A DNA stretch of 60,841 nt, filler included, from Nemertoderma westbladi (Eukaryota > Animalia > Xenacoelomorpha): assembly GCA_032718475.1 (NCBI GenBank). It is 3 parts of 3 records of this genome, joined end to end, with 100 filler letters (N's around TTAATTAATTAA, not from the genome) between each part and the next. Parts side by side here need not be neighbours in the genome. Positions count along the whole stretch, not along the records: positions 28,540 to 53,721 come from JAUCBJ010005313.1; 2 more parts are not named here. One strand, written 5' to 3'. Positions within the stretch are counted from its first letter, which is position 1. Each line of letters starts with the position of its first letter. The translations under genes and the position numbers were made by a program. Shown one piece after another: positions 24,829 through 55,570 of the stretch. Under the pieces are notes generated by a model that did no database searches, was not told the DNA's origin, and saw nothing but the letters and a program-made list of their open reading frames with translations.

Positions 24829-27193
24829 GTAAGTTATGGAGCGGCTAGATAGGGGTGGGTACTTGGGCATCCTTAATCGCCCACCTTACACTGTAACGGT
24901 AAGTTATGGAACGGCTAGATAGGGGTGGGTACTTGGGCATCCTTAATCGCCCACCTTACACTGTAACGGTAACTTATGGAACGGCTAGGAGTGGCTACTT
25001 GGGCATCCTTAATCGCCCACCTTACACTGTAACGGTAAGTTATGGGACGGCTACATAGGGGTGGGTACTTGGGCATCCTTAATCGTCCACCTTACACTGT
25101 AACGGTAAGTTATGGAACGGTTAGATAGGGGTGGGTACTTGGGCATCCTTAATCGCCCACCTTACACTGTAACGGTAAGTTATGGAACGGCTAGATAGGG
25201 GTGGGTACTTGGGCATCCTTAATCGCCCACCTTACACTGTAACGGTAAATTATGGAACGGCTAGATAGGGATGGGTACTTGGGCATCCTTAATCGCCCAC
25301 CTTACACTGTAACGGTAAGTTATGGAACGGCTAGATAGGGGTGGGTACTTGGGCATCCTTAATCGCCCACCTTACACTGTAACGGTAAGTTATGGAACGG
25401 CTAGATAGGGATGGGTACTTGGGCATCCTTAATCGCCCACCTTACACTGTAACGGTGAGTTATGGAACGGCTAGATAGGGGTGGGTGGGTACTTGGGCAT
25501 CCTTAATCGCCCCGCCCACCTTACACTGTAACGGTAAGGTATGGAACGGCTATATAGGGGTGGGTAGTGGGTACGTGGTAGAGTTGAAACAGAGACTTGT
25601 CACTGATCTCTGTTCTCTGGACTCTCCGGGCTATTTTTTGGTCTCTGGATAGGCCTCTGGTTCCCGGGTATTAAAAACAGACATTTTACACAGAGATCAG
25701 TGATTTTACAAATTAGAAATACATATTTAAAAATAGATCCTGTACAACACAAAATGTGAAATGAAGATAATTTTTCACAAATTTTTTACAATTAATTATT
25801 TCTTTAATTTTTAACTATTTTTCATACACCGCTTCAACACAATTATATATTCACTTTTACACTATTTATATTTCTAATAAATGTACCAATAATATTCTAT
25901 TTAATTTAAGGTGCGTTTAATTTTAAGTTAAATTAGCACCTAAAGATGGTTCTTATCTAAGGATAAGGGCGCTTAATTTGAGCACCCATAATGTTTAAAA
26001 GTGAAAGAAAGGGCTGATCTCCAGTCAATTTGTTATAGGATAGATAATATGACGACCAAATGGAGAGAACGAGCGTAACGAGGCTTGTAAATGAGGCGAG
26101 TAGAGCACTATACCTGTGCACTAAGTATTCGTAAATGACTATATGACTATGTATATTGAAATGTATATGATTTGAACAATTGTAAAATAAGTGCCTTTAA
26201 TTAACAAAGTACCGGTACCCATGGCGCAAAACAAATTTATATAACATATTATATTAACAATAACAAAATAAAACGAATTAATAAACAAATAACCAAATTA
26301 ATATTAATTAAGCCCCCCAAACTGTACGTGCGCTTATTTTCTTACAATGGGTAAGGGTTGAAATGGGTTGGATTTACTTTACTGTAATTGAACCATAGAA
26401 AAATAGTTAAGGCCGAATGTACAGTCTGTTTGTGCTATAGGGGAGTAATGAAATTGTAAGTACAAAAATAAGCGAAGTCTCTGATCTCCGGCTCTGGTCT
26501 CCGGTATTTTTCAAAATAATTCTCCGGGTAGGTCTCTGGTTTACCGGGATTAAGAAAAACAGGTCTCTGTTTCAACTCTAGTACGTGGGCATCCTTAATC
26601 GCCCACCTTACACTGTAACGGTAAGTTATGGAACGGCTAGATAGGGGTGGGTACGTGGGCATCCTTAATCTCCCTCCTTACACTGTAACGGTAAGTTATG
26701 GAACGGCTAGATAGGGATGGGTACTTGGGCATCCTTAATCGCCCACCTTACACTGTAACGGTAAGTTATGGAACGGCTAGATAGGGATAGGTACTTGTGC
26801 ATCCTTAATCGCCCACCTTACACTGAAACGGTAAGTTATGGAACGGCTAGATAGGGGTGGGTACTTGGGCATCCTTAATCGCCCACCTTACACTGTAACG
26901 GTGAGTTATGGAACGGCTAGATAGGGGTGGGTACTTGGGCATCCTTAATCGCCCACCTTACACTGTAACGGTGAGTTATGGAACGGCTAGATAGGGGTGG
27001 GTACTTGGGCATCCTTAATCGCCCACCTTACACTGAAACGGTAAGTTATGGAACGGCTATAGATAGGGGTGGGTACTTGGGCATCCTTAATCGCCCACCT
27101 TACACTGAAACGGTAAGTTATGGAACGGCTAGATAGGGGTGGGTACTTGGGCATCCTTAATCGCCCACCTTACACTGTAACGGTAAGTTATGG
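24761..27193 (+). repeat. 70-bp minisatellite, 20 units, each made of the 3' end of SAMD5 exon 3 plus its splice donor
   Basis: Unit AAGTTATGGAACGGCTAGATAGGG(G/A)TGGGTACTTGGGCATCCTTAATCGCCCACCTTACACTGTAACGGT; 11 donor sites before and 9 after a MITE insertion. Confidence 0.95.
25579..26580. mobile_element. hAT-type MITE (1002 bp) inserted in the minisatellite
   Basis: TIR TAGAGTTGAAACAGAGAC / GTCTCTGTTTCAACTCTA; 8-bp TSD GTACGTGG. Confidence 0.92.
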
Positions 27194-27245
27194 TTTTCTA
27201 AAAGCCCGTTTTTTACTTAAATTACCACGCCACATTAATCTTCAG

Positions 27246-28819: not shown

Positions 28820-29630
28820 TGGGCGAGCCAAGAAAGTAAGCGAGCTTAGCATACAGGTACCACTAACACACTAGGTGCGTCTGTTATTCTGTTATTCTGT
28901 TGTTCTGCTATGTTCAATTTTTAACCTTAATAACTCAGCCAAATCAGGATAAAATCTATCCAAACTTGGTATACATGTAGTCTAGCAAAAGTTTATAAAT
29001 TATCCAAGTTGAATTTGCGTATAGGCGTCGAGTCCTTCGAGTCCTTCGAGAAGGTAAGATAAATTCAGTTAATTTATTAATTAATAAATGTTGGTTCGGG
29101 TAAACACAGCATATTCAACATGACTTTTAATGGGAATTATTATTTTAAATTATAATATATAAATGATTATACTTAATAATTATACAGCTGTAATCCCCAT
29201 ACCCTATTCCATTATACTGTAGTTTTAATTAGTTTAAGTGATTTACTTTAAAAAATCTGTTTTTAATTGATCTAAACGTAATTAAGTTATCGAAATGCAT
29301 CCCGTCACTCTATGCTTCCAGCTCCATCATTCCTTGGCATGCTTGCTATTGCCTATTAGTTTGGAACCAGTCCAATCATCATACCACCACTACTTGGCAA
29401 CGGGTAATTACATCTATAGGACATGAGGCAGGCACTACTAGTGTAAGGTGCCAGACTAATGAGCCAGCTTGCTTTATCTCGCAAAATGATTGCCGAGTAT
29501 TTAATCGTGATTCTTTAGAATAATTAGCAAAATAATTTCGTTGAGGTGTTGGCATGATAAATTAATATATATACTATCAATACTATCAATACTATCGGCA
29601 TAAGGTAAGTTTTAATAATTTTTACAAATT
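28820..29630 (+). repeat. Dispersed repeat of about 0.7-0.8 kb, unclassified (copy 1)
   Basis: Colinear with 51428-52110 (TTAGCATACAGGTACCACTAAC ... ATCAATACTATCGGCATAAGGTAAGTTT). Confidence 0.85.
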
Positions 29631-31685
29631 GGGTTGCCTCCACACCTACAAATATATTACTTTTAAAACACAATTTCCTGTTAATACCTCTGCCTTTCAT
29701 TAATCCTCTATGCTCCTTTGCGGTCGGGGTGGTGCAGATTACGTAAGAGGACGGTTGAAGCGAGGGGGGGGGGGGGGGGGGGGGGGGGGGGTGGGGACTT
29801 TCCTCTCTTCCTTGATGTATTCTAATTGGCGGTTTGGTTATTACTATTTACATACTTGTGTGTATAGTAGCACTTTACAGTGTGATTGTGATAATCCTGA
29901 GTGGCTCGGTTACACGAACGAACGTTAGTGAGTGAGTGAAAATAAAGCCACGAGGATCAGAACACTGTAAAGTATGTACTGCAACAAGTATGTATGTAGT
30001 TTTATTCCAAAATTTTAACATTACGAAATGATAGTACATATACATTATAAGAGATAGAAACTGCACAAATTATATTAGTTGCTGTATAAATAAATGTAAA
30101 AATGACATAAATTATGTTTATAATTAGTTAGCTTATATTTATGGTGGCGTTTGGAGCCATGTTAATAATATAGCTACTGGTTATTAATAGCTATACCCCG
30201 CCTATCGGTAGGTAATGGGTAATGCAGTAGGCTTTTCAGGCTTTCAGGTAAATCTCCACCTATTGTTTACGTGGTAACCAATGACGGCGTTAAGTAATGT
30301 CCACTAAGGGGACATTAATTAGTAACTACTACTACTAGGTCGAGCGAACTCGGACTTAATTAGTAACACCAAATCCAATACTAAATGTACAGGCCAATAC
30401 AGTACAATGCTGTAATGTCCTCTAAAGTTGCAAAGTGCTAAATAACAACTCGCTGTTAAATACTAACGGCGTTGGAGTAATGTTACAATTTTGGAATAAA
30501 ATTTCTTATTTATTTAATTAAATTTCTTAATTACCGATTTTAGGATAGAATTGCTCAATTTTAATATGTATCTGATAACTGAGTATGGTGCTGCGCGAAG
30601 GCCCCACGAACGAGTTTGTTGGAACCGATGGAAAGCTTGCCGTGGCAGCTTATGTAAATATGTAAAAAACATTTGAATATGTTAGGAAAACAGCTGAGAT
30701 AGGGGAATTTGTTGAATGCTGCTTTTATTTGCTTACACTTCAAGCCATTTATTTTATTTAACAAAATACACGATTCTAGAACAGCGAGGATAATTTATTC
30801 TATATAATAATTCATCATATTCTGGAACATTTTGTCATATCTCCGCTATTTTACAACGAAATTCAGATTTTGTTACATTTCGGAAACCTTGCACGCTTTT
30901 TAACAGTAGATAATTTTGGGGGCATGTACTTGAATTACGATACTATATTTGGACATGGTGTATAGACTAACATCCAAATTATTAATTACAGCTTCTAATT
31001 TATGCTGATTCGATCAATTACTTTTCTAAATTATCATGTATATTTATTACATACAGATTGGAAGAAAAAGGGAATACAAATGTGTATTTACAATTACATC
31101 AGATAAATGAACTTACAGTTTCCAATAGTTTTAATAATGGAAGAGGCTTTACTAGAATCCACATTATTAAAATATAATTCGATCAACAGAAACAAGCTAA
31201 AACAAAACTTCAATATGCTCAAATTGAGGTCTAATAATTTATTTCAAAAGATAAAAGTATAAAGCAATCTCTTTCCTGCCTCAGCCTACTTAACAGTTAT
31301 TATAGTAAAAACAATGCAGGCCATATCGTTGCTTGGTACAGTGGACTTTGTTCTACAAATAAATAAATGGCGCTCTGCACTAATGAATCATATTAATTAT
31401 ACGCGATAGCTCGCAAGGTGTGGGAGTTTGGAATTAAATAGTTCATTTGCTCAGCAACCGATTGTCACAAGTTAATGCAACTCGATATATTGGATCGTAA
31501 GCCTTTGGGTATACTTACCTAGGCGCAATAGGACGCAATCCCTATAAATAAAAATATTGCGATTGTTGTCGTTGGAAACCGATTTGCGAAAAAAAGAAAA
31601 CGATTTACATAAACGTGAAATGTTAAGACAGGCATAAATGCGAAGGGTTGGTTACAACACAAGTAAAAAATAAACAAACTACCAG

Positions 31686-31822: not shown

Positions 31823-32741
31823 GTAAGACGTCCGTTTCGCAGTTAATTGAGAGGCGTTCTTGGGAGATGAATGTTAAACAAACGGTGAATGTTAAACAAA
31901 CGGTGAAAAAATTTACCAAGTTTTCAAAACCAGAAAGGAAATGCAAATGGCGGCAAAAGGTCAACAGTATCCACCAATAAAATGATCACGAACTCTTCCG
32001 AATACCTCATAATATAGACCTGGGAATTAGCTCTACTTCTTCATTTTCTTAAAGTAAATAAATTAGTTAATTATTAAATAATTATAATTATCGACCTAAA
32101 CGTGATACCCTCGTATTCATCGCATCGACGATAACTTCTGACATGGAACTCGCATATTATTTAATGTCAATAATAATTTATTATTATAATATAGATAGGA
32201 CTAAATGATGCATACTGACGTTATTGATGAAATAATGTTGCTACTTTTATTTAAATCGATATTTAAACACCTGAGGGTTATTGTATTTTAAAATACAACA
32301 AATCAAAATCATTATAATGAAAGAAAATTATAGATTGTAATTACAATATTATAAATAATTATCAAATAACTCTCTAATGATAGCCAATAATAATAAATCA
32401 TTACAACCATATCAAGGATTGAATTATAATTCAGGACACAGTTGTATGCGATCCAGTGCATTCAAGCTGTGGAATTTTCAATAAAGACTTACGCAAAGTG
32501 GGACATGCGAGCAAACATGAAAATATAGTTAAAAAACGCAGAATTAACTTTTAATCCAATAGGATGGATATTTTGAAGACAGCTTTATTATAGTGCAGCA
32601 AGTTAATAAATGCAACATAATAAATAAATATTATGATTTCAACACTAAAATATAGTAACGGCATTTTGAATTGCAGTTTCTCCAAAACAACCAACAAACA
32701 CTCTCGCAGTAGTCCAGCTGTTAGCATTACAACCAGTTATC

Positions 32742-35700
32742 TCAGTTGACAACGTCAGGTAGTTTCTCTATAGTTCGGCTTCGATTCAAACTATATCCTT
32801 GGCTCTTTCGCTCACCTCCCCGCCTCCTACGACCCGCTGGTCTCGACTCTCGGGCCAGACGCTTGGCAATGTCGTCATTGACATCCACACTGAGGACGTC
32901 GTCCGTGGAGTAATCCAAGAGATCGTTAATCTGGAACCCGGTGCGACGCCCCCTACGAGACACTTTGTGAACTCCGCCTCTCTCGTCTCTTATGTTTCCT
33001 TCCGCGACGCTAGATGGCGCTCCAGTTTTCAATAAATTATGCAACTCGGTATTTCGAACAGATTTTCCCGGGGACTTCTTGGCCCCGTCTGGTTGCGATT
33101 CCCTATTTTTGAGTTTAACTTTTTCATTGTGTTGAATTATTTTCTCTCGCATCGTCTTGTATTCGAGAGCAAACTCTATAATTGTTTTACAGAATTCTGC
33201 AGGTTTCACCGATTTGACAGCTGACACGGACATTCCGAAGTATAGAAGAAGTTTATAGAACCGACAATGTAATCGACGATGCACCGACTTCAACACGGCG
33301 ACCTTCACAGCGCAATCCTTCAAAAAAGCGGTCATTTGCTTCTTTTGCTTGAAGGTGCGGTCTCTCTTCACTATGCGGCTCAAATTTTCCCAAGAAACCA
33401 AACACTGATTCTCAACATTCGTCAAGTTGTCCTGAATTTGGTCGAAGTCAACATGAGAACATCTAACTAATCCCCCCAGCTCGGAATACAGATCGCGACA
33501 CTGTGGGTGACGCTCCATCATAAGGTTGACAAGATGGTAAATTAACGACTGTCTATGAACGGTATCTTTAACTTCGGTGGCTTTAGAAAGATATTCCAAA
33601 TGAAAACCGCACGCATCAGTGTTGTTCAAAAAGTTCCCAATAGATAGAAGCAAGCCGATGACCTTATGAAACGTTTGACAATGAACTAATTGATTCATAC
33701 CCATTTTTAAATCCATAAGTGGCTCTGCAATCTCCAATTCCAACGCGTCGTAATCCAACTTAAAGATCCACAAACGCAACCTCGCTTCCAACTCTGGAAC
33801 CATACTCAAAGTGATTAAGAACTTCTCCGCAGACCCAAGAGGCACTTCAGGGTTGGACATTTGAGCTTTACGTATCTTAACAACTTCTTCCTCGTCATTG
33901 GGAATGATACTAATAATTTTCTCTATACCTTCTCTGTTTAAAGCAATCATATCCATGTTTCCTATCGCCGTCCTAATTGTCCTCGGTAGCGGTAAACTTG
34001 ATAATGCTATATTGATTTGGTTTGATCGTTTGGAATCTAAAACTGTAGTCACCGTCTTCTTATCATCCTTCTTTTTATTAAGTTCTTTGGATTTGTTCTC
34101 AAAAAGATTTTCGATGGTCTCATAGTCTAACTGTTTTTCTTCACCTATCGTATCCCAGAGGAGTCCAGTACCCCATCGAAATTTCAAAGATTTCGGTAAT
34201 TTCTTCACTTCTTTCCAAAACAATCGAACAGTCTTCTTTGATTTATTAGGAAAGAATGACTTTCCAGTTGCAGATGATGCCAAAGGTGGAGGAGGTGGAG
34301 GAGGGGGAACAGGTACGTCACCGTGCAGTGGCGGAGGTGGTGGAATACTTGAGAGTAAGGGGGGAGGTGGAGGTGGCGGAGGAATACATCCAGCAACTAC
34401 TTGGGGGGCATTAGTAGGATAAGATTTCAGAAACCACTTATCAATATCCTCATCATCTGACTCATGTAAATCAGTAAAATCAAGATCACGAATTTTTAAA
34501 TGAAGACTTTCGAATTTCAAATTCTTAGTCAGTTCATGATCCTCAATACCATATTTTTTGGTTGTATCGACTTCTTCCATGGCCTCCATATCATCATTGG
34601 CATCATCAGCTGTAAATATTTTTCGAGGTGATCGTTTATTCTCTTTATCCGGCTCTGTTCCTTTATTATTTTTAAATTCTATTTTATTACAGTCTGGGTC
34701 TTCACCAGCACTGGAAGCAGCGTTTTCTTTTTGTTTTGTAGCAGCAAGGGATAATCTTCTATCGGCGACAGCACTCTTAGCAGCATCACTTTCTACCTTC
34801 AACATTTGGCTTGTAATATTTTTCTTCGCTTCCTGAATACCTGCAGTTGTCCATTTAGGCAAATCTAACTTGGTTCTAGGAACTGTCTTCGACTGCGCTT
34901 CTTTCTGCTTCAACATAAAACTATTAGCTAATTTACTTTTAACAGCTGCATGTTTATCATTAAATTCCTTATTTTGCATAATTTTTGGGGGCTGAGTTTC
35001 TCTAAATGACAGGTTATCTTTACAAACGTTAATTTGAGTTGCAGTGACTACACTATTATCTAGAACATTATCGCAAGTAGTCTGTAAGGAGTTGTTTTCT
35101 ACAATCTGGCAAAGATGGTTATGTATTGGCTTATCTTGAAGGGTACTTGTGGAGGAGCACTGCGCACTCAGTTGGTTTCCTGGTGTCTGTGCGAGCATAT
35201 CTATAACATGAAGCGGCTGTTCATTCTCACTAAGCACATCAAATTCACTTTCTAACTGAACAACCTCGGTTAGCTCTGCCAGTTGTAAGATTGTTGCTTT
35301 GATGCTAGAAGAAATTTCGTCAGCAGTCATGTGCTCCTGACTGGCTCGTTTTAAAACCTCAGCCACTTCATTCATCTTTGCTTTCACAGTGCTAGCTTTT
35401 GCAATACTAAGTGGGATTTTATTTCTTTTGATTAGAAAATCAAGTCCATCTACCTTCTTAGCAGTAGCATTAGTAGCATTCACTAGGTCGTTCCCACTAC
35501 CAGACACCGCGGATTCAAATTTTGATCCTTTGAGTAATTTCCGATGATATCGCTCCTCGCCATTTAATTCACCAGGGCAAGATTTTTTCAACAAGTATTC
35601 AACTGCCTGATCAAGTTTTTCTGTTATTCCAGATGTTTTTGCTCCATCACTAAAACATCTTTGAATCTTTCTCCCAGATAATGCATCAGTTTGTAATCCT

Positions 35701-38700
35701 TTTGGTTCGGCGTCACTAGGAAAAAGCCCAACCGTTGCAGCTTCTCCCTTAGCATACTTATTTGGTGGCGGCAATGCAGCTACCATTTCAGGAGTATTGA
35801 CAATTGGAACACTCATTTTTCTTATCACATCACCAGGTTTAATTTGATCATTCGATTGTTGTTGGCGCATTTCATTTAAATGTCTTAGCATTTTGTTAGT
35901 AGCACTCAAACTATCAGATATTTTTTTACCACTTTCAGTACCATTTGAAAAAATTATTTTCGATTTATCAGGCAGATTACTCTCAATATCTCTCTGAAGA
36001 TCCATATATCTATCATTTGAAACTCCATTGTTACATAAAGAAGACGTAATATTTGCATTGTCAACTGTCCCGTTTTTCAGATCCAAGTTCCTGGTGATTT
36101 TTGAACTCGTAGGAGATTCGTGAAGACTCATTTTTCTTATCACATCACTTGGTTTTATTTTATCTTTCACTTGGTCCTCTCGCATATCATTCACATAGCC
36201 TAACATTCTGTTAGCAGCTTTCTGAGCATCAGAATGTACCTTAATGTTTTGATTGACCTCTGTTGATTGACAATCTGATGAAGATATTGTAAGTTTCGCC
36301 TCCGGTACCTCAATGTCGGCTGAACTATTACTATGACCTTGATTTAATGATGTTTTACCATTCTGTTGTTTTTGTCGCATCTCATTTAAATATATCAACA
36401 TTCTATCTGTAGATCTCTGGGCATCAGCAGAAGGACCAGAAGGTGTTATAATATGTTCATTATCGTTAATATTTGCATGAAAATCTTGCAATACCATTCC
36501 ATTGTCAACAAACTTTTCAGATACAGCATTCCCAGACGATGGGGTTTTATTTAAAGTCTTTAAGTTTGTTGATGGATTTCTTTTCGCAATTGCCTTTCCT
36601 ACAGCCGAAGCTGAACCTGGACCACAAATAGCAGAATGAGATGATATTGGAACACTCATTTTTCTTATCATATCACCTGGCTTTATTTGATCTTTTGATT
36701 GTTCCTGACGCATTTCATTCAAATAACTCATCATTTTGTTAGTAGCTCTCTCAGCACCTGACGGCAACCCAGGTTGTTGATTAAGATCTTTAGCCTGGGC
36801 GGAATTCTGGGTTCTATCTTTCAATTCTGTTGCTTTATCTGTAAGTGAGTCGGAATTTAGGTTTTTTAGGTTGTTGATATGATTCTGTCCTTCATTAACA
36901 TCAGAACTACAAGTTGAGACACGGTTTTTGTCAGAATTTTCAAGATTGCCTGGATGTTTTATAGCTGAATTTGATTGTTTTACTGATAAATTCGCTTTAT
37001 TCTTGCTATTTAGATCTCCTGTGGTACTCATTTTCCTTCTCATATTACCTGGTATTGATTGTTCTTTCGGTTGTTCCTGTCGCATCTCGTTCAAATAACT
37101 GAGCATTTTGTTAGCAGCTACCTGGGCTGCAGAGGGTCGTTTATTTTCTAAACAATCTTTATTGCTATAATGAATACTTGCAGCTTTATCTACAAGTGGT
37201 TGTGTACTTGTATGCTTTGAATTAGTTTCTGTAAATATCTCTGAAACAATGTGATTATTAGGTGGGATTGAAACTTTATTAGATAAGGCAAAATTTGTTG
37301 AACCTAAAGATTTTGAACGTTCTTTCTTCAGAGATAAACCAGCACCATATTTAACACTTTTGGGTTTTCCGTGCATGCTCATTTTACTTATCATATCACC
37401 TGGCTTTATTTGATCTTTTGATTGATCCTGACGCATTTCATTCAAATAACTCATCATTTTGTTAGCAGCTCTATCAGAATCAGAATGACATTCAGGTTTT
37501 TGAGTAACATCATTGGACAGGGAGACATTTCTAGTTCCATCTTGTAATCCCATTGCTTTATGTGTGTCATGATTGAGGTTATTTGTGTTGATCTGCTTAT
37601 GCCCTTCATTAGTATTAGTACTGCTAGATTGGATATATTTTGCAGATTTATTAAAGTTAACGGGATGTTTTATAGCTTGAGATTTCGGAGATCCTATGTT
37701 TCTCATTTTCATTGGAACATCATCTGGTTTTGTGCAATCATTTAATTGTTCCCGTTGCATTTCATTCAAATTGCTCAGCATTCTATTAGCAGTAACCTGA
37801 GCTGGAGAAAGCGATTTATCTTTTAAGCAACCATCTTTTATAGATAATGCAACATTTGTTGGACATATTGGTTTCGAATTTTCCTCTTTCGTGGACAACC
37901 CTGCATTAAGTTTATGGTTTTCTGGTATTCCTTGCATACTCATTTTTCTTATGAGATCAACTGGTTTTGATTGATCTTGTTGTTCCTGTCGCATCTCATT
38001 CAGATAGCTCAGCATTTTTTTAGTAGCTATCTGGGCAGACGTAGGTGCATTGCTTTGTTCGGCATTTCTACTACATTGCGACATCATAGCTTCATCCACA
38101 ACTAAACCTGTACTATAATTATTGATAATTTGCTGCCCTTGGGTTCCAGGAATATTAGTCATATCCACAGATGGTGTCATCTTCTTACCCGCTATATCAG
38201 AGTTAGTAGCGCTCTTACTTTTGGAATTTGACTCTTTCACCGCCAATTCTTTATTTTTATAATTTCGGGGCACTGGAATTCTCATTTTTCTTGTTTTATC
38301 ATCTTGTTTTTCATTATCATTCAGTTGTTCTTGTTGCATCTTTTTCAAATAGCTTAGCATTTTATTAGTAGCTGTCTGGGCATCTGAAGGTGATTTGATT
38401 CGATCACTATCTTTAATGTGATCAGTAACAGCATCAGCTGCCAAAGCTATTCTATTGTCTACAACTACAGAATCTATAATGTTCTGACTGGAATTGGTCT
38501 CATTGCATCTTTCAGGTATATCATGCCTTGATGGTGACAATGGCTTTTTTTTAGAATTTCCAGTGGAATGTTTCATTTGCATATTTCCCTCTTCAACGGA
38601 ATCTGCTGAACTAACTTGAATACTCGATTTTCTCATACTATCTGCTGGTATGGCATGATCTTTCAATTGCTCCTGCCTCATCTCAGTCAAATACCGCTTC

Positions 38701-41700
38701 ATTTTGTTAGCTGCAACCTGAGCACCAGATAGCGATTTATCTTGTTTAAGGCTATCTGCTTCATTTTCACATTTTGGTATTATTATTACATTGTCTTTCA
38801 ATGCACTTATTCTAGACTGCTCACTAATGTCATTTGACACATTTCCTTTGGTAGAAATACTATCAGATACTGTTTTATTCTTGGAAACATCAACATTCCC
38901 TGTAATTATACTTTCTGAATTGGAATCTGTAGCAGGAATTGCACGACTATTATTATGCTTCTTACATTCTGGAATTATCTTTTTTCTTATCACATCTACT
39001 GAATTTGTTTCATTTTTAATTTCCTCTTTTTGCATGTCATTCAAGTGGCTTAACATTTTGGTGGATTCTGGCAATCGTTCTGTAATCGGAGAGATTGTTT
39101 CACTTTCAAGCATTGAATTATCAAATAATTTCAAATCAGTATTTTTTAGGAGACTATCTATCCCGCCTTCTGGCTCTTTGTGGTGCCTACCACATTTAAT
39201 TTTTGGATCCTTCTTTGTCAATGTAATTTCGAAATTTTGATCCTGGTCAGCTACATTAATCCTTTGATTAATATCACCGGGTTTCATTTTTTCCAGCCCT
39301 TGTTGCGGATTTAAATCAGTGCAGTAATCACGCGACTTAAAGCTAGCTGCAACTTTTGGGTCACAAAGAGTAGAATCTGACTTCCTTTGTACTTCTGATT
39401 TTATATCAGTCTGAGGCACAGTTACATCATCTTCTGGCCCTGATTTGCCAAAATTAGGCTTAATGAGAGATTGCTCATGTTTAAAAATCTTCTCAGTAAA
39501 TGATGCATTATTCACTGAATTAGCATATACTTTCTTATTATTTATATCCTTTTCTGTATCAACCAATTCATTCAACAGTTTGTTGGTATCCACTCTATGG
39601 TTTATTGAATCCCTTTGTTTCCCCGCAGGTTGAACAGAATCTACTGGGAATCTCTTCTGTAATTTTGCGCATTTAACATCATTTGCATCATGCAACAACA
39701 TGTTTTTACCCTCAGATTGTACTGAATGACTTCTATTTCTCGATATGGGAATATTTGAGTTTACCTTTTTCACTACAATTCTCCCTTTTTGGCTATCATG
39801 AGGTAATCCTGCACTTTCATTGTGTAATACGTGACTTGATTCTATAGAATGTTTCCCAGATTTATTGTGTCTTGGAACAGACATATCTGTGTACTTTTGC
39901 TTAGAATTAATGTCATTGGCTTCATCAGCAAATCGTTCTTTATCTTCAATGATATTATTTTCTGACAATGGCGATGTCTGGTTTTCAATTTCAGATTTAT
40001 GCATCGATTTATTATCTGATTGTACCTCTGAAATCTTCGCCCGTTTTTTATTTACAGTCTGTTTATTCTTGTGATGAGTTCGATGAGTAAGCTCAGAAAG
40101 TTGCTGAGATTCAGTATCAGATAAACTAATTTTTCGTGCTATATCCTTGGCTCTTTTAGTTTCAGTTTTCTGTTCATTTCTCATTGCCTCTAAAGATGCT
40201 TGCATTCGCTCTGCAACACTGGGACGTCTTTGTTCTGGACAAATAGAAGATCCCGGTTTTGATACATTCGTTATCTTTCGGTGTTCAATATTATCAAAAC
40301 GTTCAGTATAAGAACTAGACGGTTGATTTTGACATTTATCTTCTATTTCTTTGTTGAAATTAGCCTCGCCTTGAAAATCTGGTTTATTTTTTATGTCATA
40401 TTTACACTTTACACTTGAATTATTGATAAGAATGTCTGGTCTCCTGACATTATTATTTATATTTAAATCATCTACACATGTATCAACAGCTGATTCAGAT
40501 TCAAACTCCTTTGTCTTTGAATGTCTACTATCATTCATAACTGTAGTATTAGAAATATTTGATTGGGAAAGTACATCACTCCCATTATTGCTTTGGATAA
40601 ATTTCGATTGATATTTGGTAAACTGTGATTTAGAAATGGGCAATTCTTCAGCGGTAGCATCTTTGGAAACAACCTGTTTACATCTAAACCCAGTTCTGTT
40701 ATCGATGGTTTTTGGTTTATCAAGATAATCAACACTATTGTTACCAATTGTAAAATCATTCTTATCAAGAGTTGAATTTTGAGGTCTCGAAAGTTCTGTA
40801 GAATTTGAATCTTCTAATAATTGAAGGTTATCCTTTTCAGTCTTGTGGTCTGGAAGTACATTTGATGGAGTATCATAGCATATTTTATAAGCATTAGTAG
40901 GTACTTTAACAGTTTTAACAGTTCCATTTACACCACCTGGTGTATTATTTTTTGACAATGAATTAGATGCATCCGTTCCATGAGTCTGCTTACTAGGAAT
41001 ATTTGTTGCATGACTTGAGCTACCTTCAGTATCCAGCTGTGTAACATCATGAGCACATGTGATATTTCCATTTCTCAAATCTTTAGATTGCGTTGTAGTT
41101 TTGCTCTTAGACCCAGTCAATTTTCTTGATGCCGCAGCAAAATGTTGATGGAGAACATTCTTTAGAAGTTTTACTACTTTATCTTGAGAATCAGATAATC
41201 GCCGACTTAATGCGCCTTTATGTTTCGGCAAATTCCCTCCCTTATGACTTTTTATACTACCAGATTGAGGTAATTCCGTCTGTAAGGAATTGGAAGCAAT
41301 GGTATTTCCTTTATGTGAATTATCTTGCACTGCCGATTTGTTAGGTAGTGAGCTTGTACTTGGATTAGCAGATCTATTATCATTACTGGTATTATCTGAA
41401 CATGAATTGGAACTAATATTATCATAAGAAGGCACAGTGTCACTAGATAAATTGTTTCGCATTGAAATCGTGTGCTCATTGATACTTTTTTTATCATCAT
41501 CCAAGGATTGTTGTGTCCTCAACATGTAATCCATATGGAAAGGTTTCTTTCTACTTTCATTCTCGCTTTTCAGCATAGGACCTTTATAATTCGAATTAAT
41601 TTGGATTTGCTTAATTCCAGAATTCCCCAAGTTATCACAATAATTTTCTGATTTTGATGAGCAATTGTTTCCTCTGCCTCTTCTATAGATTTCAATATTT

Positions 41701-44700
41701 CCTTTTACAGAAGTATCATCATCTTCTCCAATTACAAAAACATCTGTTGACATCTGTGACTCTTCACCGTCAGATACAACAGGCTGTTTATGAAACAACT
41801 CAATAGATGCATCCATAGTTCTCATAAAAGACTCGTCTTGGTTTTGTGATAAACCGTTATTGTTACTTCTGCCATTACTGTTCATATTTATATGTTTCAT
41901 ATCCACATCACTAGCATTAGCCGTTGCGAAAGACATTGAGTTGTCTGAAGATGATTCAACAACGTCTTGAGGGACATTAAATTCGGCAGTAGAATTATTA
42001 CAATGCTTAGAATCAATAAATGTAGGGCCATTATGTTTTATTACATTAATCTCACAAACACTATTAATTGTATCACTTACATCTTTTCTCAAGGCAGATT
42101 GTTGTAAATTATCTGCTGGTTTGCTGTGAGCTTCTATACATTGACTGTCATATAATATTGACTCTTGATGCTCTACCTTTGCAAACTTTTTACTTTTGGA
42201 CGATTTACTTGTGTCAGAAGGCCTAGTAATTTCCCTAGAGCTTGTGCAATTTCTAGTTATACTGTTGTGGTTATCACATTGAGCCAGTGCATTCAAACTA
42301 GCATTACAATGTCTTTTCATTTGCTGATTGTCTAGAAATTGTTGATCTTGGCTATCAGTAGCATTATTAATAGGAACACACTGGATATCATTTTCATGTT
42401 TTGAGTATTCTTCAAGCTGCATCTTGAGGTCGGCAACACTGCCAAAAGACGTTGCCCGCACTATGTTATTAGAGTCACCAACACCTTCATTGTTATTGTC
42501 TGATGTCAATGATGACGACATCAATTTGTTGGATCTTTTAACATCTTGAGCTCCCTCAAGTGCCAGTGTGAGGTCAGCAACACTGCCAAAAGACTCAGTT
42601 TTTTTTATAAAAGAGGAATCTAAACTCTTTCCATTATCAGTTTGGGGTATAATTGTTTGTGATTGACTAGCTCCTTTCGCTTCCTCAATTTGTGTCTTCA
42701 GGTCAGCAACACTGCCAAATGACTCAGTTTTTCTAATATTAGAAGAATCCAAACTCTTTCCATTATCAGTTTGGGGTATAATTGTTTGTGATTGACTAGC
42801 TCCTTTCGCTTCCTCAATTTGTGTCCTCAGTTCAATAACACTGCCAAATGACCTGGTTTTCATAATTTTACTTGATTCCACAATGTTGTCATCATCAATT
42901 ACATCAGCTACAGAAGCAGATAGCACTTTGTGGGACCCATTGCTATCTTCGTGGTCTTCAAATTGTGTTTTCAAGTTAGCAACACAGCCAAAAGATTTTG
43001 CTCTTTGTCGATTGTTTGACTCGAGGATGTTTTCATCTACAGCATCAGATGTAGGAGCTGGAATCATTGCGTATGATTCATCTACTTCTAACACGTCATT
43101 TGGTCTACCATTGCACGACCTATCTACAAGACCACTTTCCTGTAACATGGTTTTTAAGTTTTCTATTTGATTGATGTTCATATTTTCAATTCCAATTTGC
43201 ATGATATTTGATTTAATGTTAGGGTCACAATTGAAAAGTAAGGCCTTTAACTCATCAATATGTGTAAAACTATCTGATCGTTTTACAGGCTCATATTCGT
43301 CATCACAGTTTTCGATTGAGCCACCCTGTGTGCTAAGCATAGACACTTGACTTTGGATATTCTCGGAACTCTGCAATAATTGTGTATCCAGGTCGTTTAT
43401 GGTTTCAAACTTCTTGGATTTTGGGAAGTAGAATTCCTTTTGTGAAATTGCTTTGCCTATTTTGCTATTCCCAGTCATATCTAGACTGATAGAGCCATTA
43501 CTCCTCACAATATCGTGTAGATGGTTAGACTGAGACTCACTAGAAATATCATACAAGTTTAACTTTGAAGATCCAGCACTTAATTCTCTTTGGTTATCAG
43601 AATGTAAACTCTTTGAGTGATTTACATTTTCAAATGCATTTTTAATGTCACTTACTAACGATGTCTGGATAAGTTTTCCATTTGAATCGGTGTGAATATT
43701 TTGCTTCATTTTCTCCGATTGCAAACACATATTCTTCAATTTACCACCAACCTCCATGTGACCACCAGTAGTGCCACTTTGTTTCTTTAAAGTTAAACCT
43801 TCTTCAAGTTTGCGTTTCCTCTCCTTCAAACTTAAATATGTCTCTTCAAATACCCCACTCTCATCGTTGTTAAGATTGCTATTTTTAGGAAGAGGAACAG
43901 GTGGCTTAGAAGGATAATTCTTTGAAGGATATGGTAATCCTTCTTGTGCCTCAGTGGTTGTAGCGTTTCCATCAAGATTAAGAATAACTCCATCTTGTAA
44001 AGTTTCACAATCATTATTGTTCTCATTGGAAGTCAATCCCATAATATTATCGAAATACTTCAATGATGACTCAAATAATCGTTTTCGACGTTCTTTAACA
44101 TCAATAGCCTGTAAACTGCTTCTTCTTTGATCAATTGATTTCGAGGTTAACTCTAGCTGTAATTTCCTTTTCCGCTCTTCAATGCTACCAATGTCATCAT
44201 TGTCAGCAAATGCATCTTCGCCACTTAGAGAAACATCATCACTGTCAATCTCACACAGTTTGCAAAAAGTATTTGCTAATTCCTCCGTAGGAGGCATGTG
44301 AGACAAAATATCTGAAATTGATAAAGAATCCTCTCCAGTCTCATCTATAAATTCCTTTAAAACAGAGGCTAAGGCTGTTGAAGATTGATCGTTTAAATCG
44401 ATCTCACACATGTCCTCATGTTCATACGAGTTACCAAGATCGGTTTCCTCATTATCAGGAAGCACATCTCCATCTTTACACTCGACAGTATGATTGCTCA
44501 ACACATCTACTGTATCGAAGCCCTCCATCATATCACTGATTGCAAATTGGATTGCACTGCACATGAGTAGAACGTCCTCATGAACACTACCCCGTGACAC
44601 TGGTGGTGAAGGCGTCACTTGAGATACTGCCATACTTAAAACATCATACTCATTGTCATGTTGCGGGGAAATACTTCGCTCAATTGCTCTGTGCAAATAA

Positions 44701-46045
44701 AATGGCCGTTCAGATGCATCTTGGTAAAGAAGTTCATCATTATCTTGTAATGGATCTATTGTGTCACTAGGGAGAATATTTGTCAATTCATTTGAAGACA
44801 TGACGCTTTCTATCTCACATGATGACACTGGGGAAATCAAATCACGTGAAAGTTCATTGGCAAACCTTGTAGGTGCATTCCCATTCATTGCTTCTGCGAT
44901 TTCATCATCGCAATAATCATCATTATTTGGATCACTATCATTGCAAGCAATATCGCTTCTAATAAAACTATATTCGCTGGCGTTATCTATGTCATTGGGT
45001 TCTCGTATACCAACATTAGAAACCTGAGAAATTGAACTGAATCTGCTAGTATTATCTGGAATGTGATCTTCCAAAATCTCATACATAGATGAAGTTCTAC
45101 TAATTGGTTGGTCAGACTCACTGCAATCCTGATTAAAAGGAAAGTCATTAAGTGTTAAACAAGAGCCACCTCTACTCATCATCAATCCAGACTCACTGTC
45201 TGCGTATCGTGATTCTTCAGAAATGTACCCTGAAGGTCGCAAACACTGGTTGAGACAAGAAATCGAGGAACTGCGACTTGGTGCTTCATCCAAGGCATCA
45301 TGCCATTCATCTACATCTTCATCATCCAAACCAACCAGAGAGTCATAATGTGAAATCAAGTTATGTTTGCGGTGGTTGTGATTCTCCATTGGTAGTGGTA
45401 TACGTAGACCTGTCGCAGGCATAGAGCCAATACTGCGTCGAGACTGACCAAATACCCCATCCTGACAACCAACGCGTTTTCTATCTGATCTCACCTCGTT
45501 CCTATGCCTGGATTCCTCGGATATCGAAGAACATCGATCACGACGTCTACAGTTTGGTACACTGATGGTACAATCCGAGGTTCTAGAATGCTCTTCCATT
45601 TCGCTCCCTTCACTACCTTCAGTCGCAGTTGATAGAAAGGTGTCGTACGATCGACGTCGATTCGAGGCACGTTGGTAAACAGTTCGACTGGACTGAGAAA
45701 CCAACGATTTTCTCCGCAATTGTCTCTCAGCCCGGCGCTTTTCTCGCTCGTCGAGTTTATTCCTACGCGACTCCTTATTAGCAGAATGATTCCTCGATGA
45801 ATCATCATCGTTGCGTCTCGAAGTTGATTTCGGTTCATCCATAACATCATTGTGGTCCGAATTCGCCCCATGCAATTCATTTACAATTTGTTCCCTTAGT
45901 CGCTTGTGATTGGCTATCTCTCTGTCTATTTCAAGCAGAGCATCCCGATATTCAATTTTCCTACTCGACTTTTGTTCTTCCGTTTCTGGAAAACTGAAAC
46001 TTCTTGTGTGCAACATGTTGTCGTTATTATCTTTGAATTCCATAG
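32742..46045 (-). CDS. FHOD: FHOD-family formin, giant terminal exon (13.3 kb): long low-complexity repeat region, FH1, FH2 and DAD-like tail
   Basis: Uninterrupted ORF; acceptor GTTTTCTAG|CT in phase 1. Polyproline FH1 at about 34280-34385. FH2 with FHOD signatures KKTVRLFWKEV, LDSKRSNQINI, PLGSAEKFL, ELEARLRLWIFKLDY, EIAEPLMDLK, EVKDTVHRQSL and EFALEYKT. Basic C-terminus. Confidence 0.95.
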
Positions 46046-46695
46046 CTAGAAAACATAAATATAACCAATATATGATAAAATTCCATATAGATATGAATTG
46101 ATCCATCTGACCAATTTACACTTTAATTTACTCCAATGCTTGACTAAATTATCAAATATATAGATAGAGTCATTGGGGGTAAAAAAAAGAGACCGCTTTG
46201 TGGGGTATAAAAAAACACTGCATAGCATAACTCAAGTTCACTTAAACGTGAGAAAGTGATATTAATACCATTTGAACGTTTTTTATTAGCTTAGCCAGTA
46301 TCCAATCAAATCACCCCAGCCTACAATATGACGTTGTTATCCAGCTGATTTAATGTTGTTATTCTTTTGGCTGGTGGAGGGTTCCAACCACAGTATTTCC
46401 CAACCATGAATTCTATTGGTTGCTTCGAATTCACCCTAGTTACCCACCTAAAATGTATGTGTGGGGTAAAAAAACAGGGTGATTCCAGCCGTTTCACACT
46501 GTTGAACAATACAAGTCTGAACTCAGCATGCCTGAGGTTGGCTAAAAGTATAATAATCTGTGAATACCTTATATATACGAGGTTACAGGTTTCAAAGGTT
46601 GATGTGATACCAAGGCATTCGCGCAGCACGAGGCTAAGATCAGAAACCAGTCGCCAGATCCGGTGGTCCTGGCAGCCCGGTATGGGAACCACGTA

Positions 46696-46848
46696 GGACC
46701 CGGACCCGGACCCGGACCCGGACCCGGACCCGGACCCGGACCCGGACCCGGACCCGGACCCGGACCCGGACCCGGACCCGGACCCGGACCCGGACCCGGA
46801 CCCGGACCCCCCGGACCCGGACCCGGACCCGGACCCGGACCCGGACCC
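46696..46848. repeat. (GGACCC)n hexanucleotide microsatellite in a FHOD intron
   Basis: About 25 near-perfect units. Confidence 0.95.
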
Positions 46849-47032
46849 GTAGGACCACACTATTGTACTAGTCAGAACATTTTCGCATATATTGTTAGAT
46901 TGTATCTCCTCATGTATCTTTAAATAAATAGACGCTGCGGGGGGGGGGGGGGGGGGGTACACGATCTAAACAACTACCCGAGCCTGATTCCCAGACTGCA
47001 TGATTCGAGTCTGATCGAATGCTACGTCGGTA

Positions 47033-50093: not shown

Positions 50094-50316
50094 CTCCCAA
50101 ACTCCGCTGACGTTTGAACATGGTGGAGTCATGACTACCAGTCTGGAGTTCGGCTGATGTTGGATTGTTAATACAAACGGTGTTAGGAATATCAACATGT
50201 TGTTGAAATATAATAAACTGTTCAGTTAGACCAGCGTCTATGGTTCCACTGCATCGGGTATCATCAATGTAATGCTGGATGCCTTGTTCCATTAATGAAT
50301 TCATTACATCTTTCAC
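50094..50316 (-). CDS. FHOD: FHOD formin exon (end of FH3 region)
   Basis: TTTCAG| VKDVMNSLMEQGIQHYID..LTEQFIIFQ..SLG |GTGAGT; phase 0 to 1 joins the giant exon in frame. Confidence 0.85.
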
Positions 50317-52578: not shown

Positions 52579-52889
52579 CTGTATATACTACCAACGGCAC
52601 AATACACCCACTGTAGACATGTGTTACTCTTAGCAACGGCCAGCATGGTCGTAGGATGGTCTAACAACTGAGCTAGGGCCCGTAAAGAGTAGGTCTGAGT
52701 GTTGTGGTCGGAGCTGGAAGATCCAATGTCAACCAGGTGATCCACACCATTAAGGTTAATAAACTCCTCAGCTATGCTGTGGTTGTGCTCGAACGTGTTC
52801 CTTATAGTGAACAACAACTTCCTCAGTTCTCTGTCCCGAGAACTGCACAAACTTTTAATGATATCTCGCGCAGTTTTTCTGCTATCCAT
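52579..52889 (-). CDS. FHOD: FHOD formin, first visible coding exon (GBD/FH3 armadillo region)
   Basis: RELRKLLFTIRNTFE..EEFINLNGVDHLVDIG..HNTQTYSLRALAQLL..LQWVY resembles FHOD RELRRALFSLKQIF..NYQNYILRALGQ..IQWLY; donor AG|GTTAGA in phase 2. The start codon is uncertain. Confidence 0.85.
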
Positions 52890-53821: not shown

Positions 53822-54394
53822 TTAATAGCGATAATAGCTATGCTTTCTATAATTTTGCCTACTAATGTTCTTACAAAAAAGGCAGAAAACATTTCGCTAT
53901 CTCAACACGGTCTTAAAACACTGATAATAAAGTCCTAAAAAATCATCACAAAAGTCCCGTGACTTTAGCTCTCTTATTTTCCAAGAATCCCGTTCAACAC
54001 ATGTAATCAGCAGTGAGACAGGATAATTTCAGTTCAGTAGCTCGGGATTGGTCGAAATCAGAACTAACTCAACGCAGGGCTATGGGTAACTGGGGCAACC
54101 TTCCCAAGCCGGCTGGCCAATCGAACAGCTCAGATCCCTCCTAAAGGATTCCAACGCCTTGGAGGGGGGAACTGGTTAGCAAAGAAAACAAATCAGTCAT
54201 ATCCCAGAAAAACCTTTACAGTAGGTTTCAGAGTATTTTAGCGTATGGGGGAAAAACTGGGTTGCGGGGCGAAGGACCAGTTACATCCCACAGAAGCTTT
54301 TACAGGTACCCACTTTTCGGTAGTACCGTGCCAGTTATTTAGATTTGATATCTTCTTTTTTTGTTCCTCGGTTAGGAATCCATCATAGCGATAT

Positions 54395-55127
54395 TGTGTT
54401 CCAGCAAGATGGTGCACCGCCACACTGGGGGCTTATCGTTAGGAATTATTTGGACTGTCATTTTAACGGACATTGGATTGGCAGAGATGGACTTCTATTT
54501 ATGGGGCCACATTAAGAACTTAGTTTATAGCCAACCGATTGAATCCTTGGCCCAACTTCGTCCTGCTATTACTGAAGCCTTCAACGGAATACCGAAAGCC
54601 CATGTTCAGAGATCCTTTGCAGAAATGATGAGTAGACTAGGAAATAGGAGGTGGCCACATAGAAATTTACAAATAGATACCGGTACAATAATAGCATTAA
54701 ACTTCTAGTGTCTAATCTAACTCTTAGATTCAATTACATTACAAGTACATTACAATTATTCCAGGTTTATTATATCGTCACAGGCATTATTTATTATTTA
54801 ATGCTAGAGTGTGTATGCATACATACAGTATTGCATTGATTGTATACTTTATTTGTTTGTCAGATTAATATGTTGAATATTGGCACAAAATAAATTGTAA
54901 TAAAATAAATAACCAAAAATAATACACTTTATGACCACCGTTCCTCGAATTTTATCCTTATTCAATTGGCTGTATTTTGTTTCCATGACAACGTTGAGTT
55001 TCCAAACACAGACCAAATTCTAAGTTACAATATTGGCTTTAAATTGTTATAAAAAACTTATATTTTATCCAACATACGTGGGAGTTATATAAATTCAAAG
55101 TAGTAACAAATTTTATGGGACACCCTG
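54395..55127 (+). mobile_element. Tc1/mariner-superfamily transposon remnant (3' part and right TIR)
   Basis: FQQDGAPPH and DFYLWGHIKNLVY..LRPAITEAF motifs; ends TTTTATGGGACACCCTG followed by TA. Confidence 0.8.
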
Positions 55128-55129
55128 TA

Positions 55130-55570
55130 TAATCAGTTTGACGGGGTGGCAATGGGTTCGCCGTTAGGTCCAGCGTTGGCAAACGCATCTCTGTCTTTCC
55201 ATGAGAGTAACTGGTTATGTGACTGCCCTGCTCATTACAAACCGAAACTGTATAGTAGATATGTGGATGATACTTTTCTAGTGTTTGATAACAAGGTTCA
55301 AGCAGATCAATTTTTAACGTACCTTAACTCGAAACACCCCAACATAAAATTTACGGTTGACATCGGAAAATACAGTTCCCTGTCATTTTTGGATGTCCTC
55401 GTAACAAAAACAACTGATTTCAGCTTTTCTACTAACGTGTACAGAAAACCGACCTTTAATGGGCTTTATACAAATTATTCCAGTTTCATGCCCTTAGTGT
55501 ACAAAGTAGGTTTATTGTTTACACTATTTTGGCGTTGTTATTGTATATACTCTAGTTATACTCTTTTCAA
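55130..55570 (+). mobile_element. Penelope-like element reverse transcriptase fragment
   Basis: QFDGVAMGSPLGPALAN, YSRYVDDTF, LNSKHPNIKFT, LSFLDV, VYRKPT. Confidence 0.85.

What the first reader, a model, noticed from the sequence alone, without database searches (positions are those of the whole stretch)
35810..40230. Unrecognised protein repeat of about 38 aa, about 12 copies, inside the giant formin
Seen: consensus S.AQ.AANKMLSYLNEMRQEQ.KDQ.KP.D.IRKMS recurs about 12 times, from SVAERMQASLEAMRNEQ..DIARKIS to SATNKMLRHLNEMRQQQSNDQIKPGDVIRKMS. The copies are separated by divergent linkers, so the motif is conserved while the spacers drift. It reads as an amphipathic helix followed by (I/M)RKMS. 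Known: WH2 actin-binding motifs are a helix plus LKKV/LRKV, and RKxS is a PKA-type phosphosite. Inference: a multivalent, phospho-switchable binding array, perhaps WH2-like with a longer linker, feeding or anchoring the FH2 domain. I do not recognise it as a named domain.
Basis: partly seen in the sequence, partly recalled or inferred. Interest (0 to 1): 0.8.

Follow-up and report, generated by a model that had tools for sequence, protein, structure and literature searches.

The report
Twelve-helix array in giant FHOD formin

Summary
In detail: exactly 12 copies lie on the minus strand (35811-40217) in a 4,457-codon frame. That frame is the giant last exon of a divergent FHOD formin, with FH3-like exons upstream and FH1-FH2-DAD downstream. 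The copies sit in FHOD's disordered linker and arose by tandem duplication of ~115-residue units. Each has a predicted amphipathic helix (Met-x3-Leu-x2-Met), a 13-14-residue spacer and a basic tail. Only the helix shows purifying selection (pN/pS 0.29, against 0.70 for tail and linkers). No family or relative was found in Pfam, PDB, 1.84 billion representatives or 120 FHOD homologues. WH2 membership fails: 0 of 12 copies match the published pattern, and the linker is 13-16 residues against 4-10. SFM/Lifeact and DAD membership also fail. My idea that the unit derives from conserved FHOD linker motifs did not beat decoys. A separate five-copy array upstream does match the F-actin motif VxxLxxx[FIL]E. 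Best reading (0.4): a lineage-specific multivalent tether holding the formin on actin bundles. The partner is inferred from context and pattern only. New variant of a known kind; interest 0.38.

The parts
40125..40217 (-). Repeat copy 1 (outlier, 383 residues from copy 2; helix plus tail with RKxS)
38976..39068 (-). Repeat copy 2 (tail without Ser)
38622..38714 (-). Repeat copy 3 (RKxS)
38280..38372 (-). Repeat copy 4 (tail without Ser)
37938..38027 (-). Repeat copy 5 (spacer one residue shorter; RKxS)
37701..37793 (-). Repeat copy 6 (degenerate tail)
37377..37469 (-). Repeat copy 7 (93% DNA identity to copy 9; no RKxS)
37026..37118 (-). Repeat copy 8 (RKxS)
36654..36746 (-). Repeat copy 9 (RKxSxP)
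36321..36413 (-). Repeat copy 10 (helix only, tail lost)
36126..36218 (-). Repeat copy 11 (RKxS)
35811..35903 (-). Repeat copy 12 (RKxSxP)
42411..43007 (-). Separate array of five SFM-type motifs (VxxLxxx[FIL]E; one perfect VxxLxxxFE), each preceded by SFG[SC]
   Evidence: definition in PMC13364712
43629..43655 (-). Single SFM-type motif (VxxIxxxFE)
32742..46045 (-). Giant last coding exon (likely acceptor TTTTCTAG ending at 46046); encodes linker, FH1, FH2, DAD
   Evidence: the splice site is inferred from sequence
52579..52889 (-). FH3/DID exon A (33-36% identity to FHOD FH3; possible start ATG at 52889)
   Evidence: tblastn E 5e-15 to 8e-12; HMM 66.9 bits
50852..51071 (-). FH3/DID exon B (splices in frame to exon A at an Arg codon; 3' end approximate)
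   Evidence: HMM 22.1 bits; junction read
50194..50313 (-). Possible FH3 exon C (weak; matched stretch only)
   Evidence: HMM 5.6 bits, i-E 1.3, colinear with A and B
34467..34487 (-). FHOD-family DLDFTDL motif before FH1
34281..34388 (-). FH1 polyproline region
33156..34247 (-). FH2 domain (Pfam PF02181, E 5.8e-70), intron-free
32796..32879 (-). Degenerate DAD plus basic region
   Evidence: FHOD DAD profile ranks it 5 of 4,443 windows, below the shuffle maximum; supported by position

Best explanation
Twelve copies of a short motif in the long linker of a FHOD formin likely form a multivalent tether: each predicted amphipathic helix would fold on binding a cytoskeletal partner, most likely the hydrophobic cleft of actin, and together they would hold the formin along actin bundles. 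Shown: copy number, position between FH3 and FH1, duplication origin, selection on the helix. Predicted: helix, short second helix in the tail, disordered linkers, no tertiary fold. Inferred: the partner is actin; single copies bind weakly and gain avidity in number (24 per FH2 dimer); the basic tail adds electrostatic contact; phosphorylation of the RKxS serine tunes some copies.
For: Host is a FHOD: the best-scoring FH2 hits are named or structured as FHOD-type, FH3 exons lie upstream, and the tree places it among deuterostome FHODs on a long branch. In FHODs this linker binds F-actin weakly, is needed for localisation to bundles and is phospho-regulated (PMC10192571 passages); human FHOD3 745-753 is a predicted SFM (PMC13364712 Suppl. 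Table 3). The same linker has amplified five SFM-type motifs (5 seen, 0.12 expected, 0 of 2,000 shuffles reach 5). Helix pN/pS 0.29 (0.18-0.51), differences by codon position 0.22/0.09/0.32 (9 of 12 copies used). AF2 gives ~20-residue helices at block pLDDT 71-87 in disordered surroundings, pTM 0.19. Hydrophobic spacing fits cleft-binding helices: 7 of 12 copies match >=4 of 6 WH2 helix positions, against 2.1% of all 6-mers; in SFM register P4 is L/I/M in 12 of 12, P8 hydrophobic in 11 of 12, P9 E/D/Q/N in 10 of 12. The helix-to-RK distance is 14 in 8 copies and 13 in 1, including the distant copy 1.
Against: The hydrophobic spacing is that of any amphipathic helix, and the copies share one ancestor, so they are not independent matches. 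SFM anchors fail: P1 V/I/L 0 of 12, P8 aromatic 0 of 12, and P1/P8 are the essential positions. The full WH2 pattern matches 0 times. The repeat profile does not prefer conserved FHOD linker motifs over FH2/FH3 helices. FHOD linker inserts are also known to bind a non-actin partner, cardiac myosin-binding protein C. The motif boundaries were chosen for protein conservation, which biases pN/pS down; the tail is no more constrained than linkers.
Confidence: 0.4

Rival explanations
1. The helices are a multivalent docking site for a non-actin partner (a thick-filament or Z-disc protein, an EF-hand protein, a kinase regulatory subunit, or 14-3-3 at the phospho-tail) that places the formin in a muscle or cortical lattice.
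For: Cardiac FHOD3's linker insert binds myosin-binding protein C; a long N-terminal extension sends fly Fhos to Z-discs (PMC5061545 passages). The motif fails both known actin-cleft consensuses. The protein already has SFM-type motifs elsewhere. RxxSxP, a recalled 14-3-3 pattern, occurs in 2 of 12 copies.
Against: No named partner consensus was matched by a tool; the 14-3-3 pattern is in a minority of copies and the tail is not under detectable selection.
Confidence: 0.3
2. One reading: atypical long-linker WH2 motifs that bind actin monomers and deliver or nucleate them for the FH2.
For: Helix then basic tetrapeptide, in WH2 order; 3-4 of 6 helix positions match in most copies; the two basic positions match in 9 and 11 of 12. 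WH2 motifs can be phospho-regulated (PMC8102491 passages).
Against: Leu anchor 0 of 12 and final V/T/A 0 of 12; linker 13 or 16 against 4-10; no Pfam WH2 hit at E<=10. Spacing of ~115 residues is far wider than in tandem-WH2 nucleators (recalled). The tail is predicted helical, whereas LKKV extends along the monomer. Formin WH2-like motifs are described C-terminal to FH2 (PMC5047451).
Confidence: 0.12
3. The helices bind each other or the protein's own FH3/DID (oligomerising stickers or extra autoinhibitory elements).
For: Met-x-x-[YH]-Leu-x-x-Met echoes the DAD spacing MDxLLxxL followed by a basic region (PMC4111664 passage). The protein's own DAD and FH3 are divergent.
Against: A profile of FHOD DAD cores (41 of 47 homologues) ranks the copies 184-1,901 of 4,443 windows. 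A single-sequence model of three copies shows no packing (pTM 0.19; weak, no alignment).
Confidence: 0.1
4. Neutral or near-neutral internal duplication, homogenised by gene conversion, with no function of its own.
For: Copies 7 and 9 share 93% DNA in the motif but about 75% over the unit, which suggests conversion. The tail has low pS as well as low pN. No homologue has the array.
Against: Helix pS 0.52 is as high as in linkers (0.43) while pN is 0.15 against 0.30; second codon positions are the most conserved. The pattern survives in copy 1 at 40-52% DNA identity.
Confidence: 0.06

Closest known systems
FHOD formins (FHOD1/FHOD3, fly Fhos); PMC10192571, PMC5061545 (passages read)
   Same: FH3 - long disordered linker - DLDFTDL motif - FH1 - FH2 - DAD order; FH2 46-52% identical to 23 FHODs; linker used for localisation and weak F-actin binding.
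   Different: Linker of about 3,900 residues in one exon that also holds an intron-free FH2; divergent FH3 (33-36%); no N-terminal nesprin-binding module found in the window; the 12-copy motif is absent from 120 of 120 homologues (best 9.1 bits, single stretch).
SFM / Lifeact-type short linear F-actin motif, VxxLxxxFE; PMC13364712 (text parts 1-3, Discussion part 1, Suppl. Table 3 read)
   Same: Single amphipathic helix in a disordered region, sometimes repeated (XIRP, PLEKHG3, SORBS); P4, P8 and P9 chemistry is compatible.
   Different: The 38-aa repeat lacks Val at P1 and Phe at P8; by my reading no entry of Table 3 has Ala or Pro at P1. It adds a fixed spacer and a basic tail. The upstream five-copy array does fit the SFM.
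WH2 motif (Pfam PF02205 recalled; pattern from PMC3298513, passage read)
   Same: Amphipathic helix followed by a hydrophobic-basic-basic tetrapeptide.
   Different: Longer linker, Ile or other residues instead of the Leu anchor, Met instead of V/T/A, Tyr or Asn at conserved helix positions; no full-pattern match.
DAD of diaphanous-related formins (MDxLLxxL plus basic region); PMC4111664 (passages read)
   Same: Met/Leu helix spacing followed by a basic, phosphorylatable segment.
   Different: Lies N-terminal to FH1 in 12 copies and scores poorly against FHOD DAD cores.

Membership tests
FHOD formin (host gene) | FH2 domain closest to FHOD-type FH2 | tested here: met
   Pfam FH2 E 5.8e-70; best hits FHOD-type. 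The tree had no other formin subtype as outgroup.
FHOD formin (host gene) | FHOD-type FH3/DID N-terminal to a disordered linker | tested here: met
   Two clear and one weak upstream exon; joining to the giant exon is inferred, not seen in a transcript.
FHOD formin (host gene) | N-terminal spectrin-repeat (nesprin) binding module | tested here: inconclusive
   No minus-strand, colinear match upstream of exon A for profile positions 1-103; it may lie outside the window or be lost.
FHOD formin (host gene) | FH1 and C-terminal DAD with basic region | tested here: met
   Polyproline region; DAD is degenerate, identified by position and profile rank 5.
WH2 | [quoted passage not shown] | tested here: not met
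   Best single copy 5 of 6; none 6 of 6 in either register.
WH2 | Linker of 4-10 residues | tested here: not met
   13 (12 in copy 5) or 16 residues (range).
WH2 | L[KR][KR][VTA] motif | tested here: not met
   Per-position passes 0, 9, 11, 0 of 12.
WH2 | Pfam model match | tested here: not met
   0 of 12 copies at E<=10.
WH2 | Binds G-actin at the barbed-end cleft | not testable with these tools
   Needs a binding assay.
SFM (38-aa repeat) | Hydrophobic P1 (Val) and aromatic P8 (Phe) | tested here: not met
   P1 V/I/L in 0, 0 and 1 of 12 in three registers; aromatic P8 0 of 12 in all.
SFM (38-aa repeat) | Amphipathic helix within a disordered region | tested here: met
SFM (upstream five-copy array) | VxxLxxxFE | tested here: met
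   V, L and E in 5 of 5; P8 is F in 1, I in 2, L in 2; I and L at P8 occur in Suppl. Table 3.
SFM (upstream five-copy array) | F-actin binding | not testable with these tools
   Needs co-sedimentation.
DAD | Similarity to FHOD DAD core | tested here: not met
   Ranks 184-1,901 of 4,443 windows.
Copy of conserved FHOD linker motifs | Profile similarity above shuffles and decoy helices | tested here: not met
   Copy scores 3.7-5.8 in the expected register against shuffle maxima of 7.9 (helix) and 4.5-5.5 against 9.8 (tail); decoy FH2/FH3 helices score higher.

The most novel reading that the evidence does not exclude
This is a giant (~4,700-residue) FHOD that has dropped its nuclear anchor and instead amplified two different actin-binding arrays in one exon: five SFMs and twelve copies of a new class of actin-binding short motif (helix, fixed 14-residue spacer, basic phospho-tail) at ~115-residue intervals. 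The formin would then be a titin- or nebulin-like scaffold that caps a filament end while cross-linking or measuring along a bundle.
Probability: 0.15. Interest if true: 0.7.

Novelty: new variant of a known kind. Interest (0 to 1): 0.38.

Why it matters
How FHOD's disordered linker holds the formin on actin bundles is not resolved in the review passages read. A natural protein that has multiplied short helices in that linker marks, by duplication and selection, which elements matter. The repeat is a cheap peptide-level candidate for an actin-binding motif outside the WH2 and SFM consensuses. Limits: it is seen in one species so far, and amplified short motifs in disordered regions of cytoskeletal proteins are a familiar theme.

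Tried and rejected
Co-folding one copy (43 residues) with an actin nearly identical to fly Actin-5C: no answer, score 0.01 in 2 of 2 runs; alignments were not used, controls were not folded, and peptides are untested for that tool. It is not evidence either way. Family searches: Pfam on the array and on each copy gave only sub-threshold hits (Cation_ATPase, GA, TcA_TcB_BD, one copy each). PDB gave p115RhoGEF at E 0.8-1.1. The profile found 0 hits at E<=0.001 in 1.84 billion representatives (a single diverged copy would be missed). The repeat region scored 0 of 1,589 candidates of 2,451-7,800 residues (shorter proteins were not searched with that tool). The Atlas gave no usable hit twice. Origin from conserved FHOD linker motifs (a Trp/Phe-Met helix and an SFM-like motif) looked good by eye but failed against shuffles and decoys; the tail's best linker column was the SFM-like one, ranked only 13 of 995. 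A DAD origin was rejected. RPEL and AKAP patterns were considered from recall only and not tested beyond the Pfam blank. Expression: no RNA holder listed. Run X4 (kind guessed as DNA) left parts of the exon, including copies 3-12, without cover, which proves nothing. No genome is held, so paralogues and the organism's own actin could not be searched. Literature: 0 papers hold all of FHOD, tandem repeats, disordered, formin and lineage-specific; the listings showed no description of this motif (titles and abstract starts only for papers not opened); one search returned 0 and one unrelated paper. Supplement file 1 of PMC13364712 could not be read and file 3 was cut. Earlier scan notes: none nearby, by words or by sequence; the 8 shown of 19 from this genome did not bear on this.
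Full report
Observation. The region lies in a minus-strand frame open for 4,457 codons, 46115-32742. A five-residue core pattern finds 12 copies, against a mean of 0.096 and a maximum of 2 in 2,000 shuffles; an HMM of the copies finds no thirteenth. Copies 2-12 are spaced 65-124 residues apart, and copy 1 lies 383 residues upstream. Two Met are invariant. The helix columns read Met 12 of 12 at position 1, Tyr 8 at position 4, Leu 11 at position 5, Met 12 at position 8, Arg 9 at position 9 and Gln 11 at position 12. Copy 10 lacks the tail. R[RK]xS is present in 7 of 12 copies, and the helix-to-RK distance is 14 residues in 8 copies and 13 in 1.

The gene. Pfam finds only FH2 above threshold. 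The 120 best FH2 hits listed, of 253, all carry FH2 and mostly the FHOD N-terminal families. FH2 identity is 46-52% to 23 FHODs, which are 53-88% identical among themselves; the query sits on a long branch among deuterostome FHODs, its sister group weakly supported, with no outgroup. FH3-like exons lie upstream on the same strand: 52889-52579 (66.9 bits), 51071 to about 50852 (22.1 bits) and a weak third (5.6 bits). The first two join in frame at an Arg codon, and a pyrimidine-rich acceptor ends at 46046. The long frame is therefore likely the giant last exon of a divergent FHOD, and the repeats lie in the linker between FH3 and FH1. The joins are inferred. Length differences seen inside the coding region in other runs keep the frame: 24 nt missing in the linker after copy 4 in X3, and a 129-nt skip in the upstream array in X2 that may be an assembly collapse (X2 and X3 are one sample, X1 and X2 may be the source, and some rows were not shown).

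Origin and selection. DNA self-comparison shows that whole units, linkers included, were duplicated: units 7 and 9 align over 312 nt at 75%. With 9 of the 12 copies (1, 2 and 10 left out as too divergent or truncated), the 16-codon helix has pS 0.52, pN 0.15 and pN/pS 0.29 (bootstrap over columns 0.18-0.51). The tail has 0.70 (0.40-1.21), the spacer 1.28, the flanks 0.81-1.06, and 96 alignable linker codons 0.70 (0.49-1.06) (first pass). The helix is thus constrained as protein, and the tail is not demonstrably so. Two caveats apply: the boundaries were chosen for conservation, and pairs share history. Copies 7 and 9 are 93% identical in the motif, which suggests local gene conversion.

Shape. 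AlphaFold2 on copies 7-9 from a single sequence gives a ~20-residue helix per copy (block pLDDT 71-87), a 5-7-residue helix in two tails, low-confidence linkers (one with two further helices) and pTM 0.19. Hydrophobic moments exceed the 80th percentile in 11 of 12 copies. This is the anatomy of a fold-on-binding motif, not of a domain.

Relatives. None were found. The profile search of 1.84 billion representatives gave 0 hits. The 120 FHOD homologues gave at best one 9.1-bit stretch in amphioxus. Pfam and PDB gave only noise. FHODs do carry single conserved motifs before FH1. One of them corresponds to human FHOD3 745-753, listed as a predicted SFM (PMC13364712 Suppl. Table 3). I tested whether the repeat is an amplified pair of these motifs. 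Four helices ranked in the top 14 of 3,834 windows in the expected register, but below the shuffle maximum, and FH2/FH3 helices scored higher as decoys. I do not claim that origin.

Known motif classes. WH2: the pattern from 1,080 WASP-family domains (PMC3298513 passage) matches 0 times. The helix reaches 3-4 of 6 positions in most copies, the tetrapeptide passes 0, 9, 11 and 0 of 12 by position, and the linker is 13 or 16 against 4-10. SFM: VxxLxxxFE with P1 and/or P8 essential; the repeat fails both anchors in three registers, though P4, P8 hydrophobicity and P9 fit in one. DAD: the spacing resembles MDxLLxxL, but a profile from 41 of 47 homologues ranks the copies 184-1,901. Kinase and 14-3-3 patterns used are recalled. 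The motif works, at most, like these cleft-binding helices; it is not a member of any.

A second array. At 43007-42411 five copies of SFG[SC]VxxLxxx[FIL]E occur (5 against 0.12 expected, 0 of 2,000 shuffles), with one more VxxIxxxFE at 43655. These fit the SFM. Their core pN/pS is 0.50 (0.23-1.02; 4 of 5 copies). This shows that the linker of this protein has amplified at least one recognisable F-actin motif.

Mechanism. FHOD's linker binds F-actin weakly, is needed for localisation to bundles, is switched by phosphorylation, and in the cardiac isoform binds myosin-binding protein C (PMC10192571 passages). A long extension targets fly Fhos to Z-discs (PMC5061545 passages). I therefore read the array as a multivalent tether. 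I put 0.4 on actin filaments as partner, 0.3 on a non-actin partner, 0.12 on WH2-like monomer delivery, 0.1 on self or FH3 binding and 0.06 on no function. The partner is inferred from context and pattern only.

Verdict. The repeat is real, selected, unnamed and so far confined to one species. It is a new variant of a known kind, a short binding helix amplified in a FHOD linker. Interest 0.38.

Noticed in passing
window 43007-42411 and 43655-43629 (minus): Five tandem SFM/Lifeact-type motifs, each after a basic-x-x-Ser site, plus one single; the middle units are a recent 43-residue duplication (86% DNA identity over 201 nt), and run X2 shows one unit fewer.
   Followed up: partly
window 46045-32742: A 13.3-kb coding exon that includes an intron-free FH1-FH2-DAD; FHOD FH2 regions are normally split by introns (recalled), so part of the gene may derive from a retro-copied or intron-purged template.
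   Followed up: no
window 52889-50194: Divergent FH3 with an in-frame stop just before a possible start ATG; no nesprin-binding module found, and the C-terminal DAD is degenerate, so nuclear tethering and autoinhibition may be altered.
   Followed up: partly
window 35435-32147 and 40192-39027: One contig of run X4 covers 32147-35435 and ends 30 nt past an AATAAA (32182-32177); another covers 39027-40192 with an 18-T loose end at an A-rich site. This looks like oligo-dT cDNA, but the run's kind is only guessed (as DNA): a weak hint.
   Followed up: partly
window ~44200-43800 (aa ~645-775): Three short charged motifs of the form [IVL]xERKRxL, possibly another degenerate repeat.
   Followed up: no
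window 34949-34815: Degenerate single copies of two conserved FHOD linker motifs remain at their usual place before FH1 (profile ranks 2 and 21, below shuffle maxima).
   Followed up: partly
window 9772-13015 (minus): LINE-like retroelement in several frames: endonuclease-like and reverse-transcriptase-like stretches, read by eye from the translations.
   Followed up: no
window 55107-55709 (plus) and 54376-54708: Fragments of a reverse-transcriptase-like element and a transposase-like stretch, read by eye.
   Followed up: no
window 46168-46400, 46697-46852 and 28900-31000: High-copy interspersed repeats flank the giant exon (very high summed depth); a GGACCC-type microsatellite lies in the upstream intron.
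   Followed up: no
window 24900-27200: Tandem or dispersed copies of a short repeat seen as recurring spurious ORFs.
   Followed up: no
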